Source: Ginglymostoma cirratum
Taxonomy: Eukaryota
Reading direction: 5' to 3'
NCBI GenBank assembly: GCA_024137785.1
Contig: JAHRHZ010000042.1
Location: 23,673,424-23,737,423 of the forward strand
Length of the DNA: 64,000 bases
The translations under genes and the position numbers were made by a program. Within the stretch, counting starts at the first letter, position 1. The number at the start of each line of letters is the position of its first letter. Shown here one piece after another: positions 14,901-48,730 of the stretch. The notes beneath the pieces are model-generated. The model did not search any database. It was not told where the DNA came from and saw only the letters and a program-made list of their open reading frames with translations.

Positions 14901-17900
14901 TGCGCAGGAATGTGAGTAACAAACTCACTCACCAATCCAGAAATGATACCCATGTTTCTTTCAACTGAAAGGTCTCATTTAAATCACATTGGCTGTCTTT
15001 TTGCCCTACCTGGGCAGCAAATACACTAGCCTGTGTCTGCTGATGAGTGGCAGGATCAGAAACCATAATGTCTTCATCATTAGCATGGGGGAATGTTTAT
15101 ACCAGAGGAGGACCAAATTTTGCTTGTATGGACCCCAGGAATGACATTTCTACTCCTTTTTGCCCCAGAACAGGGGTAAAACGATGATTTTAAAAAAACA
15201 CCTTTTGGGCCTCTTCTTATTTGGATATGTATCTCTGGTAGGAAACTCATTGTGATCCATGCTCGTGAGTTATTATCACATTCAAGTCTTGATAATACTG
15301 TCGCTTGGTAAGCAGAAGGATCGAGCCAACTCTGTACTGATGTAATTCCTGGCTGGTCAGTTCACTCAGGGTCTCCAAGGCAGGAGCATAACGTGGGATG
15401 TGAAATACCCATCTGCTTGACTTCCATTGAGTTGGTTCAATGAAAAATTTGCACTTCAGAACAGTGGCTTAAATGTCCCTGTCAAAGACTTCGTTTTCAC
15501 ATAAAACAATTCCTAATTTGCAATATTCTCAGAAATACAATTAAAGTCTGTGAGGGGAATTAAGAATGGTAGTCATAAAGTTAAATAAGTTAATTTTCAA
15601 TGACAAAAACATGAGGGAGATTATTTTGTTTGTTATTTAGGTGAAAATTTTCAGAATCTCCATTGCCCGAGCTGATTTTCTTCACATCAGCCTCTCCTCC
15701 TCTGACCAGTTGTCTTCCTTTCAGTGTTGAAGATGCTGAGCTGAACAATTTCACTGCTGCAACAGATCTTCAACAGCTCACTGTTGATCATGTAAGTCTA
15801 AATCTATCAGCAGCCTACTCAACCTTGGAGGGTATTACAGAAGAACCTGATTCAGCTATCACTTTTCAGCAAACGTCACAAGGTAATAGCCATGAATGAG
15901 AACCCTCTCTGAACTTCTCCTCAAAAGTCAAGTGCATTGAGGCAAATTCCAGTCCTCGACAAGATTGGATAATCAAGAAGAGATTCAGAGGTTAACCATG
16001 GACTTTTTGTCTTCTGTACGACTCAATGCAACACCAGGCAGTGCTTTTCTCTGCTAAATTGTACAAATTCAACAACTTCTTGCAAAATTGAAGTTGAGGT
16101 TGATGTGTTGTTATATGAATATCTTTGGGACGTATTCATTTCGACAGTTACAGATTCGTAATTACAAGCTAACTGCAAAGCCAAAGTTGATGAAAAGCTA
16201 TAAAAACAGAGATATTTGTCACTTGTACACTTGTTCCTCAAGAATCCCAACAATCTCATGGAATTACTTTAAGAAGAAGATTGGGACTCTCAGATTTGAA
16301 GAAATCTCCACAGCTGCTCTAGTTTCATGTCTGAATCAAGTGGAACTTAAACACCACCTTACACTGATACAGCTGAGAATAATTTTCAACCAAGTCAGAT
16401 GAACGTGACAGAATTAAAGAACCGAGGCCAACAATTTTTCAGCAGTGAATCAAATAGTTGAATACCTGATCTATTGTACCAGCATCTCTATAAAATGGCT
16501 GGCATTTTATTTCAATTGCTAACATTACAGCTAATGTTATAAAAGTTTTTGCCTTCTTCCTAGATTGTTTTCTCTGCTTTTTGTCAACAGGCTATGGCAG
16601 CTGAAGTCAAAGACAACTGATCGAACTCGTTCTAAAAATCATCCAAATATTCACAATATATTAATCCACTATGGACCATATAACAGTATGCATTTCCAAA
16701 ATTGCATTAAAACTTTACAATTTCTTTAACAAATAGAAAAGCACAATTGCAATTTCATGCTATGCACTGTCAGGTGTCATACTTGAGAAAAAAATCAAGG
16801 TTATTACTTTGAGGGTCACTATACTAAAAGCAAAAAGCAATAAATCTAACAAATGGAGGGGGCACAGTAGACAAGTATGATGAAAAATTGAAGAAGGTGG
16901 CTGGATATTTTGCAGCCGAAATCCTCTTGGAAACTGTTCATAGGATCACCAAAGTAGATGAGAGTTAGAAGTAGGTTTCCTAAAACTCCAGATTCAGAAC
17001 AGCCTAAGTAATAGACTTGAGTCACAGTGGCTGCAAGAATTCTCATCCCTCCTTTCAAAAATACATCAACTCTGCTCAACAACATGTCACTGAGGGATTA
17101 TGTGTTAGGCTTAGCAGTGAATGATACCATTACAGCCTCCTTTGTTAAAATGACTAAAATTTATATTTTAAATGCTGCTGCAAATAATTATGGTTGAATT
17201 TGCATAAGAGCTCATGGTCACGCATACCAAAAGGTAACTGCAGCTGATGAAGAGGTTCCTTGTGAACATGAACTCCATTTACTCATCGTGAACCAGTCGT
17301 GTCAGCAACAAGGCAGTATTATGTTGAGTCCAATAGAAGGTCTCTACATTCATATACAAAAGCTGCTTTCTTCCAAATGATCTCCCAGGGCTGACATTAT
17401 TGAAGTTGAACAGAACCCAAATTATATGCTGAAAGCACAGATTCTAGATTAAATTCTTTATTTTCTAAAGGCACCATGGATTAATAGGAGCACAGTCAAT
17501 ATCTGTGACTGGCAAATTCTTAATCCCAATTTATCATTGCTGAGAAGAATTGTCAGGACATTTGACCAGAGAAAGCATAGGTACTCATCAATATGCATAA
17601 CTTCCCTATGGAATCTCTTTACTTACCAAGTGGCTGTGATGGTGAGGAGGAAGCTTATGTTTAGGTTGCACTTTTAGCAGGGGTACAGTTGGGGAGAGGG
17701 TTAGGGTGCTGTTTTTGGGGTGTGGGACAATGTCAAAAACAGGAAAAGCAGAAAACATGAAACAACTTACCAAAAAACAGTTGATTAGTCTGCCAACTTC
17801 CTTCATTTCACTCTGTGGGCATAACTTCCACATGTATCTTTTTCCTAAGTGTTTCATAATCTGAGTGTTCCCTTTTCTGTTGCTGCAAAAAGCCATTTGA

Positions 17901-20153
17901 TATGTGACAAAAACATGCCTGTGGCCCAGAAATTCAAAGCTAAATGCCTTCTTTCTTAAAGAACTGAAGCAAGTAATATCAGAGATTAGTGATAATTGGA
18001 TCTTGTATTAGAATTTCACGAGCAATTTTGATATGGTTTCAAATGCCTTCATGACTCTGAAAGAGCCAAATTAATAAATTTAATTTACATTTGGCAACCT
18101 TTTTGCAAGCAAATTTAAATACACATTGTCACTCCTGTGCAGTGCCTGTTTTATTCTGTAAATTTGATGATATTCCTTCTCAAGACAGCTTCAAATTAAA
18201 TCTAGACAAAACTGACTGTTTGGATTAGCTCCCATGTGAAACTTTCCAACTCAAAAAAGGTGTATGAGAGACTGAAATTTGATGGATAAAATATTTGTTA
18301 ATTCCATTTCTTTTCTTATGAACTTTAAATACACGGATAAATTTTGCTGAACAGATCAGTTTTGCACTTCAGAAGCAAGCACCCCGTCTTTCAGCTAATT
18401 GTTTAAATTAGGGTGGTTTAAAGCATTGTGGGAGGCATACAATATGTTTGGAGTTCCAATCCTAACAATGGAGGAAACTCCAGATCATTTGAACTTAAAA
18501 TAAACTTGCTAGTTCCTAGACATTGCACTATTCCCCAAGATTGTACCTCTTATCCCAAAGGGTAAACTAAGTTCATGCATGATTTCTCAAGCATATAACC
18601 AGAATATTCCAGAACAGTGCCTCAGGTTTGAGAACTTAAGGCCAAAATAAATGATTTCATTCAATATCTTAATTTGCTCAATTGGAAAAAAAAATAGCCA
18701 CAGGAACATTGTTCCAGGGTAACATGAGGAAGAAAGACCCTTCCTCCCTCATCCCCAACAGTTCCTGGCGCTACCATGCTTCCCATTTCTGACTTAATCT
18801 TTTTCAGCACTGGTATCCGATGGGTAGCTCTACGAAACAGTAGCATTTAAAAGGAATAAAACTGCTCATGGTACATTACATATGACCTAGTAATGGGAAG
18901 AACTTTGTGAGCTAGCAGACAATGTGCAGCTGCCTGAGGCTTTCTGAACGAAACACTTCCTCCACTGTTAAACCAACAGATTCCCAAACACTGAAAAATA
19001 AACAAATATGCCTTGAAATTTACAGTAAACAATAATTAAGTTCTGAAGTGAAAGACACGTGGCATTAATTTCTAGAATTGTTTGAGCTAACTTCCGCGGC
19101 AAAGAAAAGATAGAACAAAATCTCACATAGTCAGATATAGTTTTTCATGGGTATCATTGTATACATTTAATTTGTTCTTATCGAAATGCATCATGCTAAC
19201 AAAATAGAAGGGATACTGCAGCTTTAAGCAACCATATGGCTTCCCTTTTCAGAAACTAGTAACATATAAACTAGGAGACACCAAATACACAGGACGCTGA
19301 AGAGACCTTCCAAGAATGCCTTCCAAATGGCCCTCTCTTTTTCTTGTGACTTGTTGTTAGTTTTGGCCCAGTTCCACTGCAGTACAAGAAAAGCCTTCAG
19401 CGAATCTTATCAGTATGTTGGACTCAAAGTGCAGAAATATGGTTATGTGCACACATAATACACAATCAAATGGAAACTGAAGAGTTATATATTTACCTTA
19501 ACGTACATGACATATACAATTGTATTAGTTTTCCACAATTTATATATGATGGCGAGAGTCAACATGGACCTAAATGTTAGTGAGAAATACGTCTGGAATA
19601 GAATTGTTCTAAGATAAAGATCCTTAAACTTTAATGTACAACTGCCCCTTTTGTTATACATGTGCAGCTTCTCTGCTAGATGTTTGCTTAGCCAGCCAAT
19701 GGGCTACAATCCACCTGTTAATTAGCCAATGGTCTACAGGCATATTACATTATTTATCTGGTAGCCTACAAATAGTATACAGGTAAATTATATCATCCAC
19801 CCAGTAAAACCACAGACAGCTTTACGTATGTGAGGGAAAGGTTAATGGCATGTACCTGCATAAATAAACATCATTAAAAGCATAAAATATGTAAACACTA
19901 CATCAGCTAAAACATGGAAGATTAAAAAGTGGAAAATCAACAGGAAGTGAACTAACAGTTTTGACAGCAATTATGCACCAGCGCCCTGCAGCCAACAGAG
20001 GGGAAATACCAGTATGGACTCACAAAAACAAATACTTGTCAGCACAGAACCTATACGCGATGTTTTACAGCCTGTGCACAACCTGTGCAGGATAAAGTTT
20101 ATTTGTTCTGTTCGGGTTAGAGGCAGTGCGCTGTTCAATGGCGCAGTGCCACG

Positions 20154-20257
20154 TCAAAATTTGAAGAGGAAGTGGACGAAGAGTATCACCAGTAGCCATA
20201 GTGAAGCAGTCATTCCTCCAGAAGCACGGTTGTTCCCATCAAGCACGGCTCCTGGAC
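20154..20257 (-). CDS. NTM: Terminal coding exon of neurotrimin (IgLON family), encoding the GPI-anchor signal
   Basis: Acceptor cttgtccctttctag|GT CCA GGA GCC, phase 1. Translates (G)PGAVLDGNNRASGGMTASLWLLVILFVHFLFKF*, matching the GPGAV...hydrophobic...KF* end of NTM/OPCML. NTM is preferred over OPCML because of the two upstream NTM-type microexons. Confidence 0.9.
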
Positions 20258-20772
20258 CTAGAAAGGGACAAGCACATATAGCCAGTTTAGTGATGCAAGT
20301 CATGTTTTGAAGCTCACTGTGCTGTACATAATAGCTTATATTGTCTCTGAAATACTTCTGAGAAGTGTTTGAAACCTTTGAAGCCACTGCATATTAAGAG
20401 AAAGTATCCCCTGTCTAGTACACTGTCTTTCACCTCAACAAAAACACTTTAAGTTCCAGCAAACTGATTTCTCTGTAAAGATCTTAAATTCAATGAATTT
20501 GAATTCAACGAATTTGAATTCATGTCCCTCATTTACATTTACAACAATTTGGCATAAGGCTTTGTCAGCAAACTGTAAATCAATAGCAATGAAGGAAGTT
20601 GGGGATTAGAAGGAGGGAAGAGATAATGGTATTTCAAATTTTCTACTCGTCAGCAGTTGATAGGCTGCAATGGTCTTTATCTGATTCTTTAAAATTTCTG
20701 ACTTAATGAGACTGACTGATGTACATACACTGAAGTTTTGCCTTGATAAAATAGCCAGTGGTCTGTTGGGAG

Positions 20773-20971
20773 ATAGCAGGAACTGCGGATGCTGGAGAAT
20801 CTGAGATAACAAGGTGTGGAGCTGGATGAACACAGCAGGCCAAGCAGCATCAGAGGAGCAGGAAGGCTGACGTTTCGGGCCTAGACTCTTCTTCAGAAAC
20901 GTCAGCCTTCCTGCTCCTCTGATGCTACTTGGCCTGCTGTGTTCATTCAGCTCTACACCTTATTATCTCAG
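20773..20971. mobile_element. Short palindromic Penelope-like pLTR insertion with TSD
   Basis: Inverted arms at 20801-20876 and 20896-20971. Flanking duplication cagtg(g/a)tctgttgggag at 20756-20772 and 20969-20985. The arm matches the pLTR at ~63035-63100. Confidence 0.85.
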
Positions 20972-21334
20972 TGATCTGTTGGGAGTTGCGTTGAAGCAGT
21001 GTGGTCTGCATTTTTGTATGTGGTGGACAGTACAGAATCTTGAAGGATACATTTGAAATTTAAATCCATATTTCCATTCATTTTGATAGGTGTTCATGGC
21101 AACAAATCTTGATGTTTTTAATCCAGTCAGAACAGCCTTTTCCAAGTCTTCAGATTTGAGACATTCAAAACAGATAGACCAGCAAATAGGTTACTTTGAT
21201 TGCAAAGAACAGATTTTCAGGGTCTAGGGCAGATTGGGGTCCCTGAGCTTCCAGTTTAAACTACTTTCAGATTGGGAAAAAGGGAACTCCGCTTATGATC
21301 TAATCCATGCTATAGTGAACCTAACAGTGCAGAT

Positions 21335-21540
21335 TGGTCTAGCTCAATTGGCTGGATGGCTAGTTTGTGAAAGAGTACAATGCTAACAACATGGGTTCAA
21401 TCTCCCACTTTGACTGAGGTTACAATAAAGGACTCTCTTCCACAACTTCTCTCCCCTTGCCTGAGGTGTGGTAGCCCTAAGGTTAAATCACTGCTCATTA
21501 TCTCTCTCTAGCAAGAAGGCAAGACTATGGTGACTTGACG
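21335..21540 (+). mobile_element. tRNA-derived SINE
   Basis: A-box-like tagctcaattgg and B-box-like gggttcaatctccc, followed by a body ending gactatggtgacttgac. Confidence 0.65.
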
Positions 21541-21781
21541 TAGCAATAACAGTGGACTAACAAATTGGGGGACCAGTTCATTCCTTAGTCATGGCTTCAC
21601 TTATGGAGGCAAGCAGATAACTCATATAAAGGTGGTGATCTTGTGATGTCTCTAAATTTTACTTGCTGGCATTTCCAAAGGAAAGCACAAAGAAGTTGAA
21701 CCTTATTTTTGGTGGCAGTATCAAAAAGGTGTTATTGCATCAGCCACATTCTAAATTCTGGGTCCAACAGTCATTGATATT

Positions 21782-24700
21782 GGGCTGAATTTTATCAAAC
21801 ACAGCCAAGAGTCCATTCCAGGGAGGTTCTCTCTATGAACTCCAACGAAGTATCTGATGCAATTTTTGGCTACTGATCTAGGCATCATACTCTTCCGGTG
21901 CATGCTAGCATTTTTGTGCATCCACTAATGGTGGAGGTATTTTTCCACACTCTGGATCTGCTGTGACATGGACCACTAGCCTCATATTTAAAATGCAGCT
22001 GTGCCCCAGGTCAAAGGCTGCAAACCAGGAATGGCCATTCGCAGACTGTTACTGCACAATTCTAAATGACACAGCTGAGAAAGGGTAGGTGGAGTCCCAG
22101 CCTTGCCTGTAGGGATCTGGGGGTCCTAGTTGATGGGGTAATGGAGAGAAGGGTCGTTGTCTTCTCTTGGTCGGCAACTACCATGGCTGAGGTTGCCACC
22201 CAGGGGAGTGCAGTTTCCATGGTCTGCAGAAATGCCCTACGATGCAGGAGCAGGCTAATGACCTTCTGTGCACCCTGAGTGTTAGTATCACCATATTCTT
22301 TCTGTTATCTCACACTCATTCCAACTTGGTCATTGGATCCGCCTCCCACCAAGTCTCATCGTCTACCACTGTCTCTACCACTCTTAATGGATGCAACATC
22401 TCTGTTTAATCACTCTTATCCACTACACATCCCCAACCCACAGCTGCCATACTTCCTACTCACTCACTTGGGACACCTTGACACTGTTCCTGCACGAGTA
22501 TTAACAGCTGTGCCACTTTCCTCTCAGTTGATCAGTCCTTTGGTCTCCTTCCAGGAGAACACAGCCTGCAGTAGGTCAGACAGAGCCAAGATGGGAGATT
22601 AGGTGGCCAACATTTGACTCCTCTGCAAGGACAGAATTTTGCCTTAGCAGGAGAAGACTGGTGGTGATGTGGAGACCTCTCTGTCCCTGCAGCCAAGATT
22701 AATTCCCATAAAACAAATTCTGTTCCATTAGCAGCAGTATGAAAGTATTCTTAACATACACTAGATACTACCCAAGTTTGCATTTCATTTCTTCTCTTGA
22801 CTCCAGTGGCATTGTACAGCTTTATAGCACCTCCTGCGGACATCAACTCATCCTGCACCTCTGAAGGAGAAACACAGACCCTTAAAAGTATGAACCAGGA
22901 AGATTGTTTTCTGCACCCTCTTCCAGCTCACTTGCTGACACCTTAATGAGTTCATTTGGGAATACGGTTGGGAGCATATTCTGGGGAGAGAATCACTGCG
23001 CTGCCTCCATAGCAGACCAAGGAAGGATTTCATGCTATTGCTGGCACTCAGAGGAGACCAGTCAGCTGCTCAGCCTCAGGCAGAGGAGGGTCCCAAGGTG
23101 TCATCTTGGAGACCCAGGTCCGGTTCACTCAAGGTCTGCTGGATATGTGCTGGATCTATATTTTATCACTTTAACCATTGATGCAGTAATGGCAAGGTGA
23201 CAAAGGAAAGTGGGACCTTGACCTCAATCCAGGTGCTTCTTTCTTTCAAGGACACAGGGCAGATCCAAGAGGCACCCAGCCAGAGAAAGAAACACATACA
23301 GGTCCACTAGATGTCTTCTCTCAGGCTAGCTCCGAGGTGTCTAACCTCTCCATCTCCATTCTGCCTGCAATCCTCAATCCTGTAGGAGTTCAAGAGCAGG
23401 GCCAACCCGCATCTAGCCAGGACAATCTCAGCATGACGGGGCCCTCAAATTACAAGTGCCCCCAAAACTCTGGTGAAAGCAGGATCCACTCTGCAGCAGG
23501 CTCCTTCCACCCCAGCTGTAGACACAGGGACTGTGCCTAGCCACAGCAGGAGGAAAGGAAAAAGAGGTGACATGGGAGAAAATTGGTTGTAAATAGGTCA
23601 CATTTCTAAATATATGTTCAGTTACAAGCTTAAAGGTAGAGAAGTTTCCACCTTTAGCGCCACACAAAGTTCTGAATAATATCTATGCTTTCCGTGGCAC
23701 CTAAATAAGCATGAGGCTTTGTGAGGATTGAATATGGGTATATCTGAAGCTTTTCATCAGTTTATAGCCTTCCCTTTTATTAAATAACAACAGAAGCACA
23801 AGAAGATTAAAACTGCATTTGCAGTAAGAAATAAGCTGGCGATGCTGGCCTCACCAGCATTAAGAAATTTAGTCAGTGAAAGATGATTGCACACAAATCA
23901 GGTCTGGTGAAAGAGATTCAATAGGAAGTCCTGCCTGGCTTGCTTAGGCTGACGAGGTGGTGTTTTAGGATCTTAAACAATCTCTCTCAGTATAACGTTG
24001 TGGCTCTTTTGAGTCTTCATTGTCCAACATATCATCTTGAGGCATTCTGCAGTTGTCTGAGGCAAAGCATCCAAGAATTATGCAATATCTTCTGTCTGTT
24101 CAACACTCCAACAACTCCTCAGCCATGCCCTGCATGGGAACTAGATGTAGAGGAGATATTTTATGATCCTCATTGACCCAAGTGGAATAAGGTGTTGCAT
24201 TACAGATATGCTGGGTATCACAATATGGCTTTCTGATTCTGCCTTCAATATACAGTAAATCATCACTCCCCTTCTCTCATCTTGCATTTGAAACTCCACA
24301 TCAGGAGGCTGTGTCACATCAACCGGGGGTTGATGCAGATCCTTGGTTTCCAGATGCAAATCTTCCTCATCTACTCTTGCAGGAGATACAGACACAACCC
24401 TAGCTGTTGTACTTGGGGACGGGTACAACGAGCCTATGTGAGCAAAGCAGTAATGAAGCACCTCCTCAATAATGTAAAAACTCAGCACAAAAAGGACATT
24501 TAATCTCATCATCCGTGAAACATCAGGATGTGCAAACTACTAACAAGGAAGGCAATGGGTGCCTGCACAAGGGCCTTTCACATCACTGACCTGATTCAGT
24601 ATATTCTGCTCAAGCCATTCGACACACACACATGCAGTTGGATGTTGTGAATTTGTCAGTGTAGAAGCAATAATGGAAACTTCTCTCCTGACTTCCAACT

Positions 24701-24950
24701 CTCACAATTCCCAAGAAAGGCAGCGTTGCACATTGGATAATAGTTTGGATGCTTTCTCATCCAAAGTGTGAAGTCAGCGGCTTCTGAATCTTTGAAACGT
24801 GGAAAATGACTGCAAATTGTCGAACTAGGGTGAATCTCTGCCACTCTCCTGACATTAATTGTGCTTTCACAGCCACAGGGAGTAATTTGTAATGTTGAAC
24901 AAGATAGTCAAGATTGTTGATGTTTTGTTGAGGTAGTCGGTCAAAATTTT
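21782..24950. mobile_element. Decayed PIF/Harbinger transposon: Myb/SANT-like gene (+) and HARBI1-like DDE transposase remnant (-)
   Basis: Left end gggctgaatttt. ORF 22066-22278 DLGVLVDGVMERRVVVF..AEVAT..SAVS..RNALRCRSRL is Myb/SANT-like, with a probable second exon after ctccttccag at ~22554 (ENTACSRSDRAKMG). Minus strand ~24140-24660 resembles the transposase C-terminus (LKxRFRC...IVxxCxxLHN-like). Right end uncertain. Confidence 0.7.
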
Positions 24951-24959
24951 ATTTCCTCT

Positions 24960-25050
24960 GCAACATCTGTTGAGGTGCTGAGTTTCTCCAGCTATTTCTG
25001 TTTTTTGCTTGCTTCAGATCTCAAGCATCCACAGTTTCTTTGTGTTGTTA
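24960..25050 (+). mobile_element. Penelope-like pLTR fragment
   Basis: gctgagtttctccagctatttctgttttttg...cagatctcaagcatccacagttt. Same family as 44079-44227. Confidence 0.55.
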
Positions 25051-25199
25051 TGGCGGTGACTGTCAATTGTCTCTGCCCGCACATTTCTCCCCACAACCTG
25101 TTGTGTGCCTGCACTCTATCATTTCCCACCCTGATATACTGAGATGCTTGCCTTAACAATGGTTGTTGCCTCTGAAACCCAGTCTGCTGCCTCCAATCC

Positions 25200-25312
25200 G
25201 AATGCCCAGGATGTTGGTAGTGGGAGGTTCAACAATGGCATTGTTATTGAATGTCAAGGTGAGGTAATTAGTTCCTTTCTCGTGTTAGAAACGGTCATTC
25301 ACTGCCTGGCAC
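25200..25312 (-). mobile_element. LINE fragment, same family as 9926-10555
   Basis: ttcaacaatggcattgttattgaatgtcaag...tgcctggcact aligns with ~10421-10500. Confidence 0.6.
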
Positions 25313-26561
25313 TATCCAGAAGATTCGCCGTAGCTAACATCCAGAAAACTAAAAATGGCTTCATTGTCTCTCTATCTTTGGAAATCATGCATCATTTCTA
25401 GTCAAACATCATCTCTGACCAAGAAGGCATATTGTTTGCCTCAACATCAAATGGCCATCTTATTATTTAATTATTTAAAATCGGGATTTTCCTTCTTCCA
25501 ACTGGGGAAGAATCTAGCTATTAGCTCTCACTTTACAAAACATCAAATTTTAACTGAGTGATCAGCCATGAGACTTTATTTTTAAAATGAACTCAAGGTT
25601 TCACCAATGAAACAATGTATTTTAAAAGCATTTATTGAAATTTTGTAACTAGGTTTGGGGAGACAAAGAGAGACTGACAATTGCCAGACATGGTAGCAAC
25701 GAACAAGGAGCAGGGCACAGCTTAAAAGTCTTGAGGCATCCATGATGATTGTGATGACTAATTTACTGGAATCTCTCCTAAATTATGCTGTCTTTTTTAA
25801 GGCAGCCTCAGGAGCTTTTCTGTGACTACTTATTTTCTGCTTTGCCGTCATGTCCTTTTCTTTTGTTTAAATTATCTTGTCACGATTAAAAAGTTACTAG
25901 ATGTTTTTCGTTGAACCAGCAATCGTGATGTTATTGTGTAAGATGCATTCTCACCACATTATCAAAATGATTGCTATTGACAAGCTGCTTCACAGAGTGA
26001 TAAACTATAATAGCACTCATAGTATTGTGCTCTATCCTAGCCTTAAAACACAGAATGCTAAGCATCTCTATTTATCGACAGGCTAGGATGACAAAAAAGA
26101 AACAAGAATTATCTTTGTCATAAGTTGAAAGGTGCAAATCATATGCTGAGTAATCACGGTGGCTTCAAAATCAACTGTGCTAGCAACGGGGTAAAATGCC
26201 TATAATTTTCATCTGGAATTCTTCTAATACATCAGAGGTATTAAACAAAGGACATAAACTGATGGCACATGAAGTTATGTCTGCTATAATTGTGGAAAGT
26301 GCGTTAAATAGGCAGTTTTGCCAATTACCCCATAGTTCAATTTCAAAGTCAGCATCCCATATCCCTCAATACCCCAGCAACAGCGTTGCATCTAGTGGCA
26401 AGCTCTGTAAATTAGATTCTTTTCACTTCAATCTTCATATCATATAATTTTTGTGCCACAAATTGCTGGAAATGCGAACTGATAAAGATGCAGTGAGGTT
26501 ATCTGGGTCTTCGATAGAAAAAGAAATGAAGCCAATGATGTGGGTAAAAATTTGGGTTTAC

Positions 26562-26568
26562 CAAAGTA
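26562..26568 (-). CDS. NTM: Candidate 7-nt frameshifting NTM microexon (or start of a short alternative terminal exon)
   Basis: Long pyrimidine tract ...tctctctttccctctctttgtttcgtttccag|TACTTTG|gtaaac. No AG on the minus strand from 26716 to 26571. The donor is only moderate. Confidence 0.45.
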
Positions 26569-27550
26569 CTGGAAACGAAACAAAGAGAGGGAAAGAGAGA
26601 ATGAATAAAGAGAAATAGAAAAGACACAAAATGGATACATAAGAAAATAATTTGAAATTTGCAGAACAAATCCAGCAATTTATCGATAGTCATTGCCAGC
26701 CAATGATGACATGCCACTTCATGTTTTCAGAAGCTAGAGCTGAGTGGAGGAGCACAAATGATCAAGCAATTTCTGCAAAGTCGTAATTTTGTTGCCTCAA
26801 ATTGCTGTTTCTTTATATATAAAACTTATATTGGCACCTGAAAATACTATAACTCTCCCTGAAATATCTGAGTCATGATCTTTATCATGTTTTCCTACTT
26901 AGCCAACATGATTGAAATGAACTTTTGCTAACAGGCCTGAATCCTGGCTTAAAATTAAGCAATTAATCACACAGCGGTCTGTAACATAACATTTTCAGTG
27001 ACCAAATCACATCTGGTAAGATCACTCTTCTCTTTTAATATGATTCGACATTGTATGTTGATCTTACCAGGGATTGGGCTGTCTTCTTTCCCATGAGCAA
27101 AAACTTTCAAAATACTGTCATATCACAATAATGCATATATTAAATATTTCAGTGTACAATTTGAAATGGTCCAAAGCTACTGATGAAAATAGAAACACAC
27201 ACATGCACATGTTTACAATGCATTCACTACAACAAACTGGACAACTGAACCAGGTCACTACTAATTGTGCTAATTGAACTACATGAATGGAAACACTACA
27301 AAGCAACAGACATTTTAAAGGGATCTGAATATTGGGAATTAATGCATGGAGCAAATTTTACTATGAAGCTATAAAGAGACAACAACTGTACTGGTATTGA
27401 AGACCAATTTCTTTGGGTTAATGGGTTAATTTGTTTGCTTGAACACCAGCATCTAGTTTAGTATCCTTTAGAACTCACAGAGACTGTTAAGTTGTAGTGC
27501 AGTTACAATTTCTTTCATGCATTTTAATCTTTTTCTTCAATTTTACAAAC

Positions 27551-27586
27551 CTTTCCAATTTGCAAGAACTGTGGAAGTTTTCTCTT
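27551..27586 (-). CDS. NTM: NTM 36-nt phase-1 microexon (E)EKTSTVLANWK
   Basis: ttttttgctttcttcaattttttttag|AAGAGAAAACTTCCACAGTTCTTGCAAATTGGAAAG|gtttgt. Frame-preserving. Resembles the amniote NTM cassette EVKTTALTPWK that precedes GPGAV. TGCATG lies ~30 nt downstream. Confidence 0.8.
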
Positions 27587-29921
27587 CTAAAAAAAATTGA
27601 AGAAAGCAAAAAAGCTTATGATGAACAATTTAAATGTAAACTAAGTTGCAACAAGAGTGTGGAGGAAACTTCAATACAGGATTTTAGTCTTAGTCATATG
27701 ATGCAATTGATGCCAGATCCAGAACAAAACACATGCAGTCTGAAATCAAAGGTTCAGTGTTACAAAGGGTGGGGATGCCAGTGTCTGGCATAAAACTACT
27801 GCAGGCACTAGAGGTGAAGTAGCCAAAACAAGAGCATCTGCTGGAGAAAGTTGTGACCTCCCTTTTGGAAGCTATCAAAACTGTCTCCTTCGTACCAGAA
27901 CTTAAAGCAGCAAAATTCTCAGAAGAGGAGTTGGCAGAACTCTCACTAACAATAAAAATTCTGCCAACCATCTTATTTCATTTGCATGCAAAAGAAGATT
28001 TTAATATCTTGCAGGTTAAATTACAGTGTTAATAATTTTGAATACTCAAACCATCAATGGATTGTTGATTCGAGAAAATTAGAACTGTATGTGCTGTTGC
28101 AAAATTTAGGTTTGGGACGGTTTTAGCAGTCTTGAATGCATAATACTCACTCAGCAATGTTTATTAAATTGGATATTTAATTCAAGAAGCAAGTATGAAT
28201 TCAGACTGAAGATATAATGAAGATTTGTCAATAGAAAAAATAGATTTTGGGCTTGCCCACTGACCGCAACAGTTATAGATTAATTCATAAGATCGACAAT
28301 ATACATTTTTAACTATGACAAATCATTAAAAAGATGATTGCAACAATATCAATGTAAATGATGCAAGTAATAAAACAGCTCAGCTCAAAGCAATGTATAG
28401 CAGTGTCTGCAAGAAATGTTAGTTCAAATATTTGATTCCTTATTTTATCTCCTTCAAACTTATAGATACCATATAGTTATCACCGTAAATATTATTCTGA
28501 AAGTTTCAACCTTTCTTCAGCACAATTCTCAATTTGAATTTAAACAAACTGCAATGTCGATGGTATTAACTGAATTTTGAGGGAGAAGCAACATTAGTTA
28601 TTTTAAAAGACAGATCTGGATGAACAGTCAAATGATACACAAGGTTAAACAGCACGTTTCTCCACAAATGAAATGGAATTTTTACCTCACTGCCCATAAA
28701 ACCACTTTTTTTTTATTGTAACCACTGCCTATTCTGTTCTAAATCAATGTGAGTCCCATTTCTCATGTCATTTGAAACACCATTATGGCTAAAATATGAA
28801 TTGGTTATATTGGACCCCTGCTGTTTACTGCATGTAATGACACTGGATTCTTGCATTTCTAGTACAAATCCTTACTAATTCCACAAATGGATTGATAGCA
28901 GTTAAATAACTTGTTCCTTTACTCGTAAATAAGTGAAAATGTTCTTCATAGGACAAACAATTTATTCTTAAAGATGTGCATCAGACTACTGTTGAACACG
29001 TTATGAGTACAAGGAAGTTTAATGGTAGAAAGGATCGGAATGTGTCTTTTTATCCTTTGGAACCTGAGCTTGAACACAAACCAAACTGGAGCTCTGAAAG
29101 TTTTTTTTTTGTCTGGAGGTTGACATGAACAGAGCTTAGGAAGTGTCAATTAAGTTCTTAGTAGCTCCAGGGGACAAAATTGCTCATACATTACCATAAG
29201 TGAACATCACATGTGGGTCAAGGATTCCATAAGGACCATTTATGTGGATTGTTGAAAAATCAAATTTGTAAGATTGAACAGTGCCTTTTAGAGATGAGGG
29301 AGGAATATTATTAGGGGAGGGTTCCAAATGAGATAACTTTGTACCTATGCTAGCATGTAATATTAAGAACTGTACTGATAATTCAGATTCCTTCCCAAAC
29401 AACACATAGGACTCTTGCTCAAGTCAACTGGTATTAGCTAATTTCCAGTAACGTGGTCCATACTCGAAAGACCACAATGTTCACTCATTGTGTCATACCA
29501 TTGTGTCATACCAGCAAAGGTTCCCAGAATGGGTCTGACAAACCAAGTCTGGAAAACAACATTTTCACCTCCAAGTGAGAATGATCTTTACCTATATTGA
29601 CCATTCCCTAAATAGTTAAAAATGCTACACAAATTTAGCATTGCGCTCAGTTGACTCATAAGTCATCCAAGGAGTCAACAATTTCCTCCTATTATTCACA
29701 ATGTCGTGCGTGTCAGGGGTTGCAATTGCATAAGTGCTTGCTGTGGTAACAATTGATTTTGTTTCAGAACAAATCTTTTGATTATCTTAAAACTAAACAG
29801 AGATTAGCAAGACATTTAGACGTGTCTCTGATCTGACATTATCTACTTGTTGATCTGATACCAGAAGAACAGGTTAGAGATTTTCTATTTGTTCTGAGGT
29901 CATTGTTATTATATTATGAGT

Positions 29922-48694: not shown

Positions 48695-48730
48695 CTTGAA
48701 TCTGAGTCGAGCTCGTAGGCTCACTTACTT
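48695..48730 (-). CDS. NTM: NTM 36-nt phase-1 microexon (E)VSEPTSSTQIQ
   Basis: About 70-nt AG-free pyrimidine tract ...ccattttctccgattatag|AAGTAAGTGAGCCTACGAGCTCGACTCAGATTCAAG|gtcagt. Frame-preserving. Resembles the NTM cassette ELNEPTSSTLLQ. Confidence 0.85.

What the first reader, a model, noticed from the sequence alone, without database searches (positions are those of the whole stretch)
26562..26716. Candidate 7-nt frameshifting microexon that would switch NTM from GPI-anchored to secreted
Seen: about 1 kb downstream of the EEKTSTVLANWK microexon, the minus strand has a 146-nt AG-free zone (26716-26571). It ends in a nearly pure pyrimidine tract and ccag|TACTTTG|gtaaac, with YCAY motifs on both sides. 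Splicing these 7 nt between the upstream phase-1 exon and the last exon gives V-L-W-S-R-S-R-A-stop (TGA at 20241-20239), removing the whole GPI signal. Reading through the donor gives V-L-W-stop, the same outcome. Known: long AG-exclusion zones mark regulated 3' splice sites, stops in a last exon escape NMD, and secreted IgLON isoforms exist (chick CEPU-Se). Inference: a tiny anchor/no-anchor switch that gene predictors and short-read aligners would miss.
Basis: partly seen in the sequence, partly recalled or inferred. Interest (0 to 1): 0.7.

Follow-up and report, generated by a model that had tools for sequence, protein, structure and literature searches.

The report
Possible 7-base anchor-removing shark exon
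The last intron of a shark nerve-cell adhesion gene holds an unusually strong splice signal that would, if used, add seven bases and likely release the protein from the cell surface, but no RNA seen here shows that it is used.

Summary
The sequence facts hold: a 146-nt AG-free zone (26716-26571), a long pyrimidine tract, AG, seven bases (26568-26562) and GT. Splicing them in predicts ...VLWSRSRA-stop with no GPI signal. AG-free length alone is common (34 sense, 32 antisense in 864 kb). With the tract added, this is the only non-repeat acceptor of its class among about 112,000 AGs, though the thresholds were set after seeing it. In one related shark, AG, GT, spacing and zone are kept and the 79 nt from branch point to AG are unchanged (P about 0.04). 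However, the exon has one change and its downstream flank drifts at 6%, against 1% for the neighbouring microexon. The donor is weak, YCAY is at background, and no UGC or TGCATG lies in position. None of 649 annotated proteins has the predicted tail, and a mouse microexon table lists none at Ntm's recalled position. The RNA contigs were uninformative. The gene is the single shark NTM/OPCML-type IgLON. Verdict: a plausible, unproven, probably lineage-restricted minor exon (0.40), nearly tied with an unused chance tract (0.38). Secreted NTM isoforms are already annotated, with tails that fit donor read-through.

The parts
26571..26716 (-). AG-exclusion zone, 146 nt
   Evidence: same length kept in organism D
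26639..26643 (-). putative branch point cTTAt, A at 26640 (-72); assigned by eye from the recalled yUnAy consensus, not computed
   Evidence: sequence; lies at the start of the block unchanged in organism D
26571..26638 (-). long CU-rich pyrimidine tract (53/60 pyrimidine before the YAG)
   Evidence: unique sequence in the genome; 0 changes in 26569-26647 in organism D
26569..26570 (-). candidate acceptor AG
   Evidence: kept in organism D
26562..26568 (-). candidate 7-nt exon C, phase 1 to phase 2; one C-to-T change in organism D (Leu to Phe)
   Evidence: inclusion not shown
26556..26561 (-). candidate donor GTAAAC, weak; its TAA (26560-26558) is the in-frame stop if the donor is read through
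   Evidence: rough PWM score 0.36, top 9.7% of all GT, below the donors of Ig3b, A and B
27551..27586 (-). microexon B, 36 nt (EEKTSTVLANWK), annotated in relatives
   Evidence: in 56 of 114 chondrichthyan proteins
48695..48730 (-). microexon A, 36 nt (EVSEPTSSTQIQ), annotated in relatives
   Evidence: in 60 of 114 chondrichthyan proteins
20154..20257 (-). coding part of the last exon, carrying the GPI signal (GPGAV...FLFKF)
   Evidence: contigs of X1 and X16 break off at this acceptor
20239..20241 (-). TGA reached in the shifted frame if C is included
   Evidence: sequence; peptide ends at S-R-S-R-A

Best explanation
The site is likely a real but minor, lineage-restricted 3' splice site whose use would insert a 7-nt cassette exon, shift the last exon by one base and so likely yield a secreted, GPI-less form of the shark NTM/OPCML-type IgLON. 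Shown: the acceptor anatomy, its rarity, its retention in one related shark, and the frame arithmetic (V-L-W-S-R-S-R-A-stop, hydrophobic tail lost). Inferred: U2AF binds the long tract behind a distant branch point at -72; PTBP-type proteins repress the CU-rich tract outside neurons; the weak GTAAAC donor is used only part of the time; the stop lies in the last exon, so the mRNA escapes NMD; and the signal-peptide-bearing three-Ig ectodomain is secreted. Inclusion, tissue pattern and protein are all untested.
For: Only non-repeat site with AG-free zone >=100 nt, >=50/60 pyrimidine and YAG: 1 of 55,255 sense AGs, 0 of 56,810 antisense AGs in 864 kb. At looser thresholds, a donor at least as good within 3-27 nt follows 3 of 7 sense sites (C, known exon A, one unannotated) and 0 of 16 antisense sites; 12.7% of all YAG have such a donor. 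The sequence is unique, not a repeat. In organism D the AG, GTAAA, 7-nt spacing and 146-nt zone are kept, with 0 changes in the 79 nt from branch point to AG against a local 4.1% (P=0.036 for that window). It lies in a phase-1 region that already holds two microexons. Peak 15-residue hydropathy falls from 2.48 to 0.02. GPI-less NTM isoforms are annotated (human isoform 16), and soluble Ntm is active (PMC5715320 passage).
Against: No junction was observed. The thresholds were chosen after seeing the site, and antisense near-misses exist (93/53, 90/52, 240/49). An 81-nt gap somewhere among 30 random changes in 726 nt has P=0.64. In organism D the exon has 1 change in 7 and the downstream 100 nt 6 changes, against 0 of 36 and 1 of 100 for B; the only upstream UGC (-95, upstream of the branch point) and one YCAY are lost. 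There is no TGCATG within 250 nt, whereas A and B have one on each side. The donor is the weakest of the four scored. None of 649 annotated IgLON proteins has the predicted tail, including 114 chondrichthyan proteins of which 56 carry B; annotation pipelines may miss 7-nt exons. The mouse MicroExonator table has no entry at Ntm's recalled position but does list the Opcml 27-nt exon.
Confidence: 0.4

Rival explanations
1. A chance pyrimidine tract ending at an AG in an AT-rich intron, with an incidental GT seven bases later. It is not spliced beyond noise and has no function.
For: Long AG-free zones are as common antisense as sense (32 vs 34); 16 antisense non-repeat sites pass looser thresholds; 12.7% of YAG have an equal donor nearby. 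The exon and downstream flank diverge at the local rate, and no regulator motif is in place. No annotated product.
Against: The best such site in 864 kb of both strands falls on the sense strand, in the 7.3-kb last intron where microexons cluster. The block from branch point to AG is unchanged in organism D.
Confidence: 0.38
2. A decoy acceptor. It binds U2AF or PTBP and tunes the inclusion of B or the retention of the last intron, but is rarely joined into mRNA.
For: Strong, conserved acceptor core with a weak donor and a changing exon.
Against: No data on intron retention; the intronic cover in X15 is spread along the intron. The decoy concept is recalled and was not tested here.
Confidence: 0.12
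3. The acceptor opens an alternative terminal exon. The GT is ignored, translation ends V-L-W-stop, and the RNA is polyadenylated about 0.9-1 kb downstream. The outcome is the same secreted protein.
For: In-frame TAA directly after the 7 nt; AATAAA at 25636 and 25580; weak donor. Annotated GPI-less forms in relatives end shortly after a donor (human GETVL, Amia KGW).
Against: The 300 nt that would be 3' UTR diverge at 3.8-6% in organism D. No annotated V-L-W end.
Confidence: 0.08

Closest known systems
Secreted NTM isoforms (chick CEPU-Se; human neurotrimin isoform 16, NP_001373895.1)
   Same: A three-Ig ectodomain without the GPI signal, made by alternative RNA processing of the 3' end.
   Different: Human isoform 16 ends GETVL right after the Ig3b exon, and several bird models end GE there. 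Both fit read-through of the Ig3b donor (inferred), not a frameshifting microexon. The CEPU-Se paper was not held; only its title was seen, so its mechanism was not checked.
SRRM3/4-dependent neural microexons (3-27 nt)
   Same: Tiny exon, distant branch point and long tract (bioRxiv 10.1101/2024.09.17.613571, passages), in a neural adhesion gene.
   Different: No UGC between branch point and AG (that paper finds one in 74-79% of such exons); the tract abuts the AG; the donor is weak; the flanks are not conserved; the length shifts the frame.
NTM stalk microexons A and B, and the OPCML 27-nt exon
   Same: Same phase-1 region between Ig3 and the GPI exon.
   Different: Those are in-frame, annotated from sharks to mammals, and B has highly conserved flanks.
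GPI/secreted switches by isoform choice (RECK short isoform; CD55/DAF frameshifting cassette and NCAM SEC exon, both recalled)
   Same: Splicing or polyadenylation changes the 3' end; CD55 is recalled as doing so by a frameshift of the last exon.
   Different: Those use long exons or polyadenylation. RECK was seen as an abstract only, which names splicing plus polyadenylation but not the anchor; CD55 and NCAM come from no call.

Membership tests
Neural microexon (SRRM3/4 type) | 3-27 nt exon bounded by AG and GT | tested here: met
   7 nt, (sequence only)
Neural microexon (SRRM3/4 type) | Included in mRNA, enriched in neurons | tested here: inconclusive
   no contig held C, but none held the known exon B either; raw run X20 had depth under 1 on the last exon; tissues are not on record
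Neural microexon (SRRM3/4 type) | Long tract with distant branch point | tested here: met
   53/60 pyrimidine, 146-nt AG-free zone; branch point assigned by eye
Neural microexon (SRRM3/4 type) | UGC between branch point and AG (present in most, not all) | tested here: not met
   Only UGC at -95, upstream of the putative branch point, and lost in organism D; A and B have UGC at -33 and -22
Neural microexon (SRRM3/4 type) | Highly conserved exon and flanks | tested here: inconclusive
   One close relative only: 0/79 upstream core, 1/7 exon, 6/100 downstream; B has 0/94, 0/36, 1/100
Neural microexon (SRRM3/4 type) | Dependence on SRRM3/4 | not testable with these tools
   needs a minigene or knock-down
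NOVA/RBFOX-regulated exon | YCAY cluster or TGCATG in the flanks | tested here: not met
   YCAY at background; no TGCATG within 250 nt
Secreted IgLON isoform | Product keeps the Ig domains and lacks the hydrophobic GPI signal | tested here: met
   predicted product only
Secreted IgLON isoform | Transcript or protein detected | tested here: inconclusive
   0 of 649 annotated proteins; cluster listings were partial and 7-nt exons may be missed by annotation
NTM one-to-one orthologue | Groups with tetrapod NTM to the exclusion of OPCML | tested here: not met
   tetrapod NTM and OPCML group together (90/93) and the sharks sit in an open fork outside. One search gave a weak 84/78 link to ray-finned NTM. 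One such locus found in G000
NTM one-to-one orthologue | Carries the NTM-type A and B stalk microexons | tested here: met

The most novel reading that the evidence does not exclude
A neurally regulated 7-nt frameshifting microexon, conserved at least across cartilaginous fishes and missed by aligners, switches the ancestral NTM/OPCML IgLON between GPI-anchored and secreted forms. It would be an anchor switch made by one of the smallest exons, older than the NTM/OPCML split.
Probability: 0.15. Interest if true: 0.65.

Novelty: new variant of a known kind. Interest (0 to 1): 0.33.

Why it matters
Soluble IgLONs are active: soluble Ntm changes neurite outgrowth, and shedding by ADAM10 is the route described in the reviews read. 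A 7-nt exon that removes the anchor at the RNA level would be a second, genetically encoded route, and a clean example of a frameshifting microexon that escapes NMD because it sits in the last intron. It would also point to a class of last-intron exons that annotation misses. If the exon is unused or confined to carpet sharks, it is a minor curiosity, since secreted NTM forms are already annotated.

Tried and rejected
RNA: no RNA holder was listed on record for the last exon. (X15, X16, X1, X20 on 17500-28000) was swamped by a repeat at about 20770-20970 and its tables were cut. X1 and X16 each show one contig at the last-exon acceptor (the bin depths 8.95 and 26.9 equal that contig alone). 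Each stops at 20258, one base into the AG. That fits an upstream exon ending in TTG (Ig3b or C, not separable) rather than AAG (A or B). X20 had depth under 1 there. (X16, X17, X19, X2 on 26250-27680) laid no piece of X16, X17 or X2 on C or B, only low-complexity matches; lack of cover is no evidence. I laid 7 of the 24 listed runs.

Metagenome scans for vertebrate host DNA around B: 0 hits with the shark pattern; 3 hits with the tetrapod pattern, all without splice context and judged chance.

Another sense-strand candidate about 390 kb upstream matches no annotated insertion, so it does not calibrate the signal.

The spliced peptides and stop position printed used a last-exon start that was off by one; one search replaces them.

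Papers not held: Lodge 2001, the human microexon atlas tried by PMC id, the microexon-evolution paper tried by DOI. The human brain micro-exon paper's main supplement could not be searched; its other files held no NTM. The largest MicroExonator file was too large to read. bioRxiv supplements are closed and may bear on shark microexons (listing). Ray 2020 has no Ntm in its main text. Searches listed no paper on a 7-nt NTM exon.

Earlier findings of this scan: nothing.

Full report
Gene context. The window holds the 3' end of a minus-strand IgLON gene. The last Ig exon (Ig3b) lies about 9 kb beyond the window. It is followed by microexon A (48730-48695), microexon B (27586-27551) and the GPI-signal exon starting at 20257. 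The Ig3b peptide is 96-98% identical to carpet-shark and lamniform proteins that NCBI names OPCML-like. The own-genome search lists one locus at 80-97% identity; the other IgLON loci are at 47-63%. In a tree of 24 Ig regions, tetrapod NTM and OPCML group together (90/93) and the cartilaginous fishes sit in an open fork outside. An earlier tree without tetrapod OPCML linked them weakly to ray-finned NTM (84/78). A review passage says the fifth IgLON arose by a duplication in tetrapods (PMC10084454). The gene is best called the single NTM/OPCML-type IgLON, with NTM-like A and B exons.

Observation. The coordinates, the 146-nt AG-free zone, the tract and AG-7 nt-GT are as described. After any of the three upstream phase-1 exons the product is V-L-W-S-R-S-R-A-stop, and read-through gives V-L-W-stop. 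Peak hydropathy of the tail falls from 2.48 to 0.02. A branch-point-like cTTAt sits at -72, assigned by eye from a recalled consensus.

Chance. I scanned 864 kb (the window plus 800 kb upstream in this gene; 8,800 N) on both strands, with repeats masked by self-BLAST. AG-free zones of 146 nt or more are not rare: 34 sense, 32 antisense. Adding at least 50/60 pyrimidine, YAG, a zone of at least 100 nt and non-repeat status leaves this site alone: 1 of 55,255 sense AGs and 0 of 56,810 antisense. At looser limits there are 7 sense and 16 antisense sites. A donor at least as good within 3-27 nt follows 3 of the 7 sense sites and 0 of the 16 antisense. The three are C, exon A (through an internal GT at +6, not its true donor) and one unannotated site. 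These thresholds were set knowing the site, and several antisense sites come close. The donor scores 0.36 on a rough matrix of recalled frequencies, below Ig3b (2.72), A (4.46) and B (1.65); 12.7% of YAG have one as good nearby. YCAY is at background and TGCATG is absent, whereas A and B have it on both sides. The only UGC is at -95. A preprint reports UGC between branch point and AG in 74-79% of SRRM3/4 microexons, and that it is not strictly needed (passages).

Conservation. One 5,008-nt contig of run X19 (organism D, kind not on record, continuous through the intron) spans 26250-27680 with 37 other letters, 36 of them listed, and one 8-nt gap. The AG, GTAAA, 7-nt spacing and 146-nt zone are kept. 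The 79 nt from the branch-point motif to the AG have no change, against 4.1% locally: P=0.036 for that fixed window, but 0.64 for so long a gap anywhere in the 726 nt. The exon has a C-to-T change, the downstream 100 nt have 6 changes, and the UGC and one YCAY are lost. B shows 0 of 94 upstream, 0 of 36 in the exon and 1 of 100 downstream. C therefore lacks the signature of an ancient neural microexon; at most its core acceptor is constrained. This is one comparison with a close relative.

Transcripts and proteins. The two read-laying runs could not test inclusion: no contig carried C, but none carried the known exon B either, and contigs drop minor forms. Of 652 proteins fetched, 649 could be examined and none has the predicted tail. 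They include 114 from cartilaginous fishes, 56 of them with B. Only up to 15 members per cluster were listed, and pipelines may miss 7-nt exons, so this is weak evidence. In the MicroExonator mouse table (PMC7821500, supplementary file 2, 2,988 rows), searches found no 7-nt exon of this sequence and no minus-strand entry at chr9 28-29.99 Mb, where I recall Ntm lies. The Opcml 27-nt exon next door is listed. This argues against conservation to mouse, within that table's embryonic samples and filters.

Mechanism. Most likely, by a small margin, this is a real minor cassette. U2AF would bind the long tract, PTBP-type repression would limit its use, a weak donor would give partial inclusion, and the shifted stop in the last exon would escape NMD and give a secreted three-Ig protein (0.40). 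All steps after the frame arithmetic are inferred. The rivals are an unused chance tract (0.38), a decoy acceptor (0.12) and an alternative terminal exon (0.08).

Comparison with what is known. GPI-less NTM is not new: human isoform 16 ends GETVL after Ig3b, bird models end GE, and an Amia model ends KGW after B. All fit donor read-through (inferred). CEPU-Se was seen only as a title in reference lists and as a protein named in an egg-white proteome. Soluble IgLONs arise by ADAM10 shedding and are active (passages of PMC10606101, and PMC5715320). PMC5967153 (passages) does not mention sharks. Nine paper searches listed nothing on a 7-nt NTM exon; several key microexon atlases and supplements could not be read.

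Verdict. Observation confirmed; interpretation plausible and untested. If real, it is a new route to a known kind of isoform. Interest 0.33.

Noticed in passing
window 26976-27550, minus strand: The 575 nt downstream of microexon B are far more conserved in organism D than the intron beyond (6 changes in 705 nt including B and its upstream flank, against 30 in 726; Fisher P=6e-5). They hold TGCATG at 27521 and 27207 and ATTAAA at 27528 and 27039. B read-through gives K-G-L-stop, and an Amia model ends K-G-W after B. This may be splicing-regulatory sequence or the 3' UTR of a secreted form made by intronic polyadenylation, possibly a better-conserved anchor switch than C.
   Followed up: partly
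L002 8904-8890 (G000:C42, about 9 kb beyond the window): Read-through of the Ig3b donor gives G-R-Y-Q-S-stop, the shark counterpart of the human GETVL secreted isoform.
   Followed up: partly
G000:C42: Only one NTM/OPCML-type locus was found in this genome. NCBI names the shark and coelacanth proteins OPCML although they carry NTM-type A and B exons, and the tree suggests a pro-orthologue.
   Followed up: partly
G000:C42, about 24,064,966, minus strand (intron between the Ig1 and Ig2a exons): Another non-repeat strong acceptor (86-nt AG-free zone, 51/60 pyrimidine) with a GT 24 nt later; an in-frame 24-nt microexon candidate with no annotated support.
   Followed up: partly
window 48730-48695 and 27586-27551: A and B both start with a tandem acceptor (AG-AAG), and annotated isoforms in relatives differ by one Glu there (P0130, P0010). 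A also has an internal GT at +6.
   Followed up: no
window 20770-20970, 21340-21480, 24975-25000: Very high-copy repeat fragments in the last intron that dominate RNA read laying.
   Followed up: no
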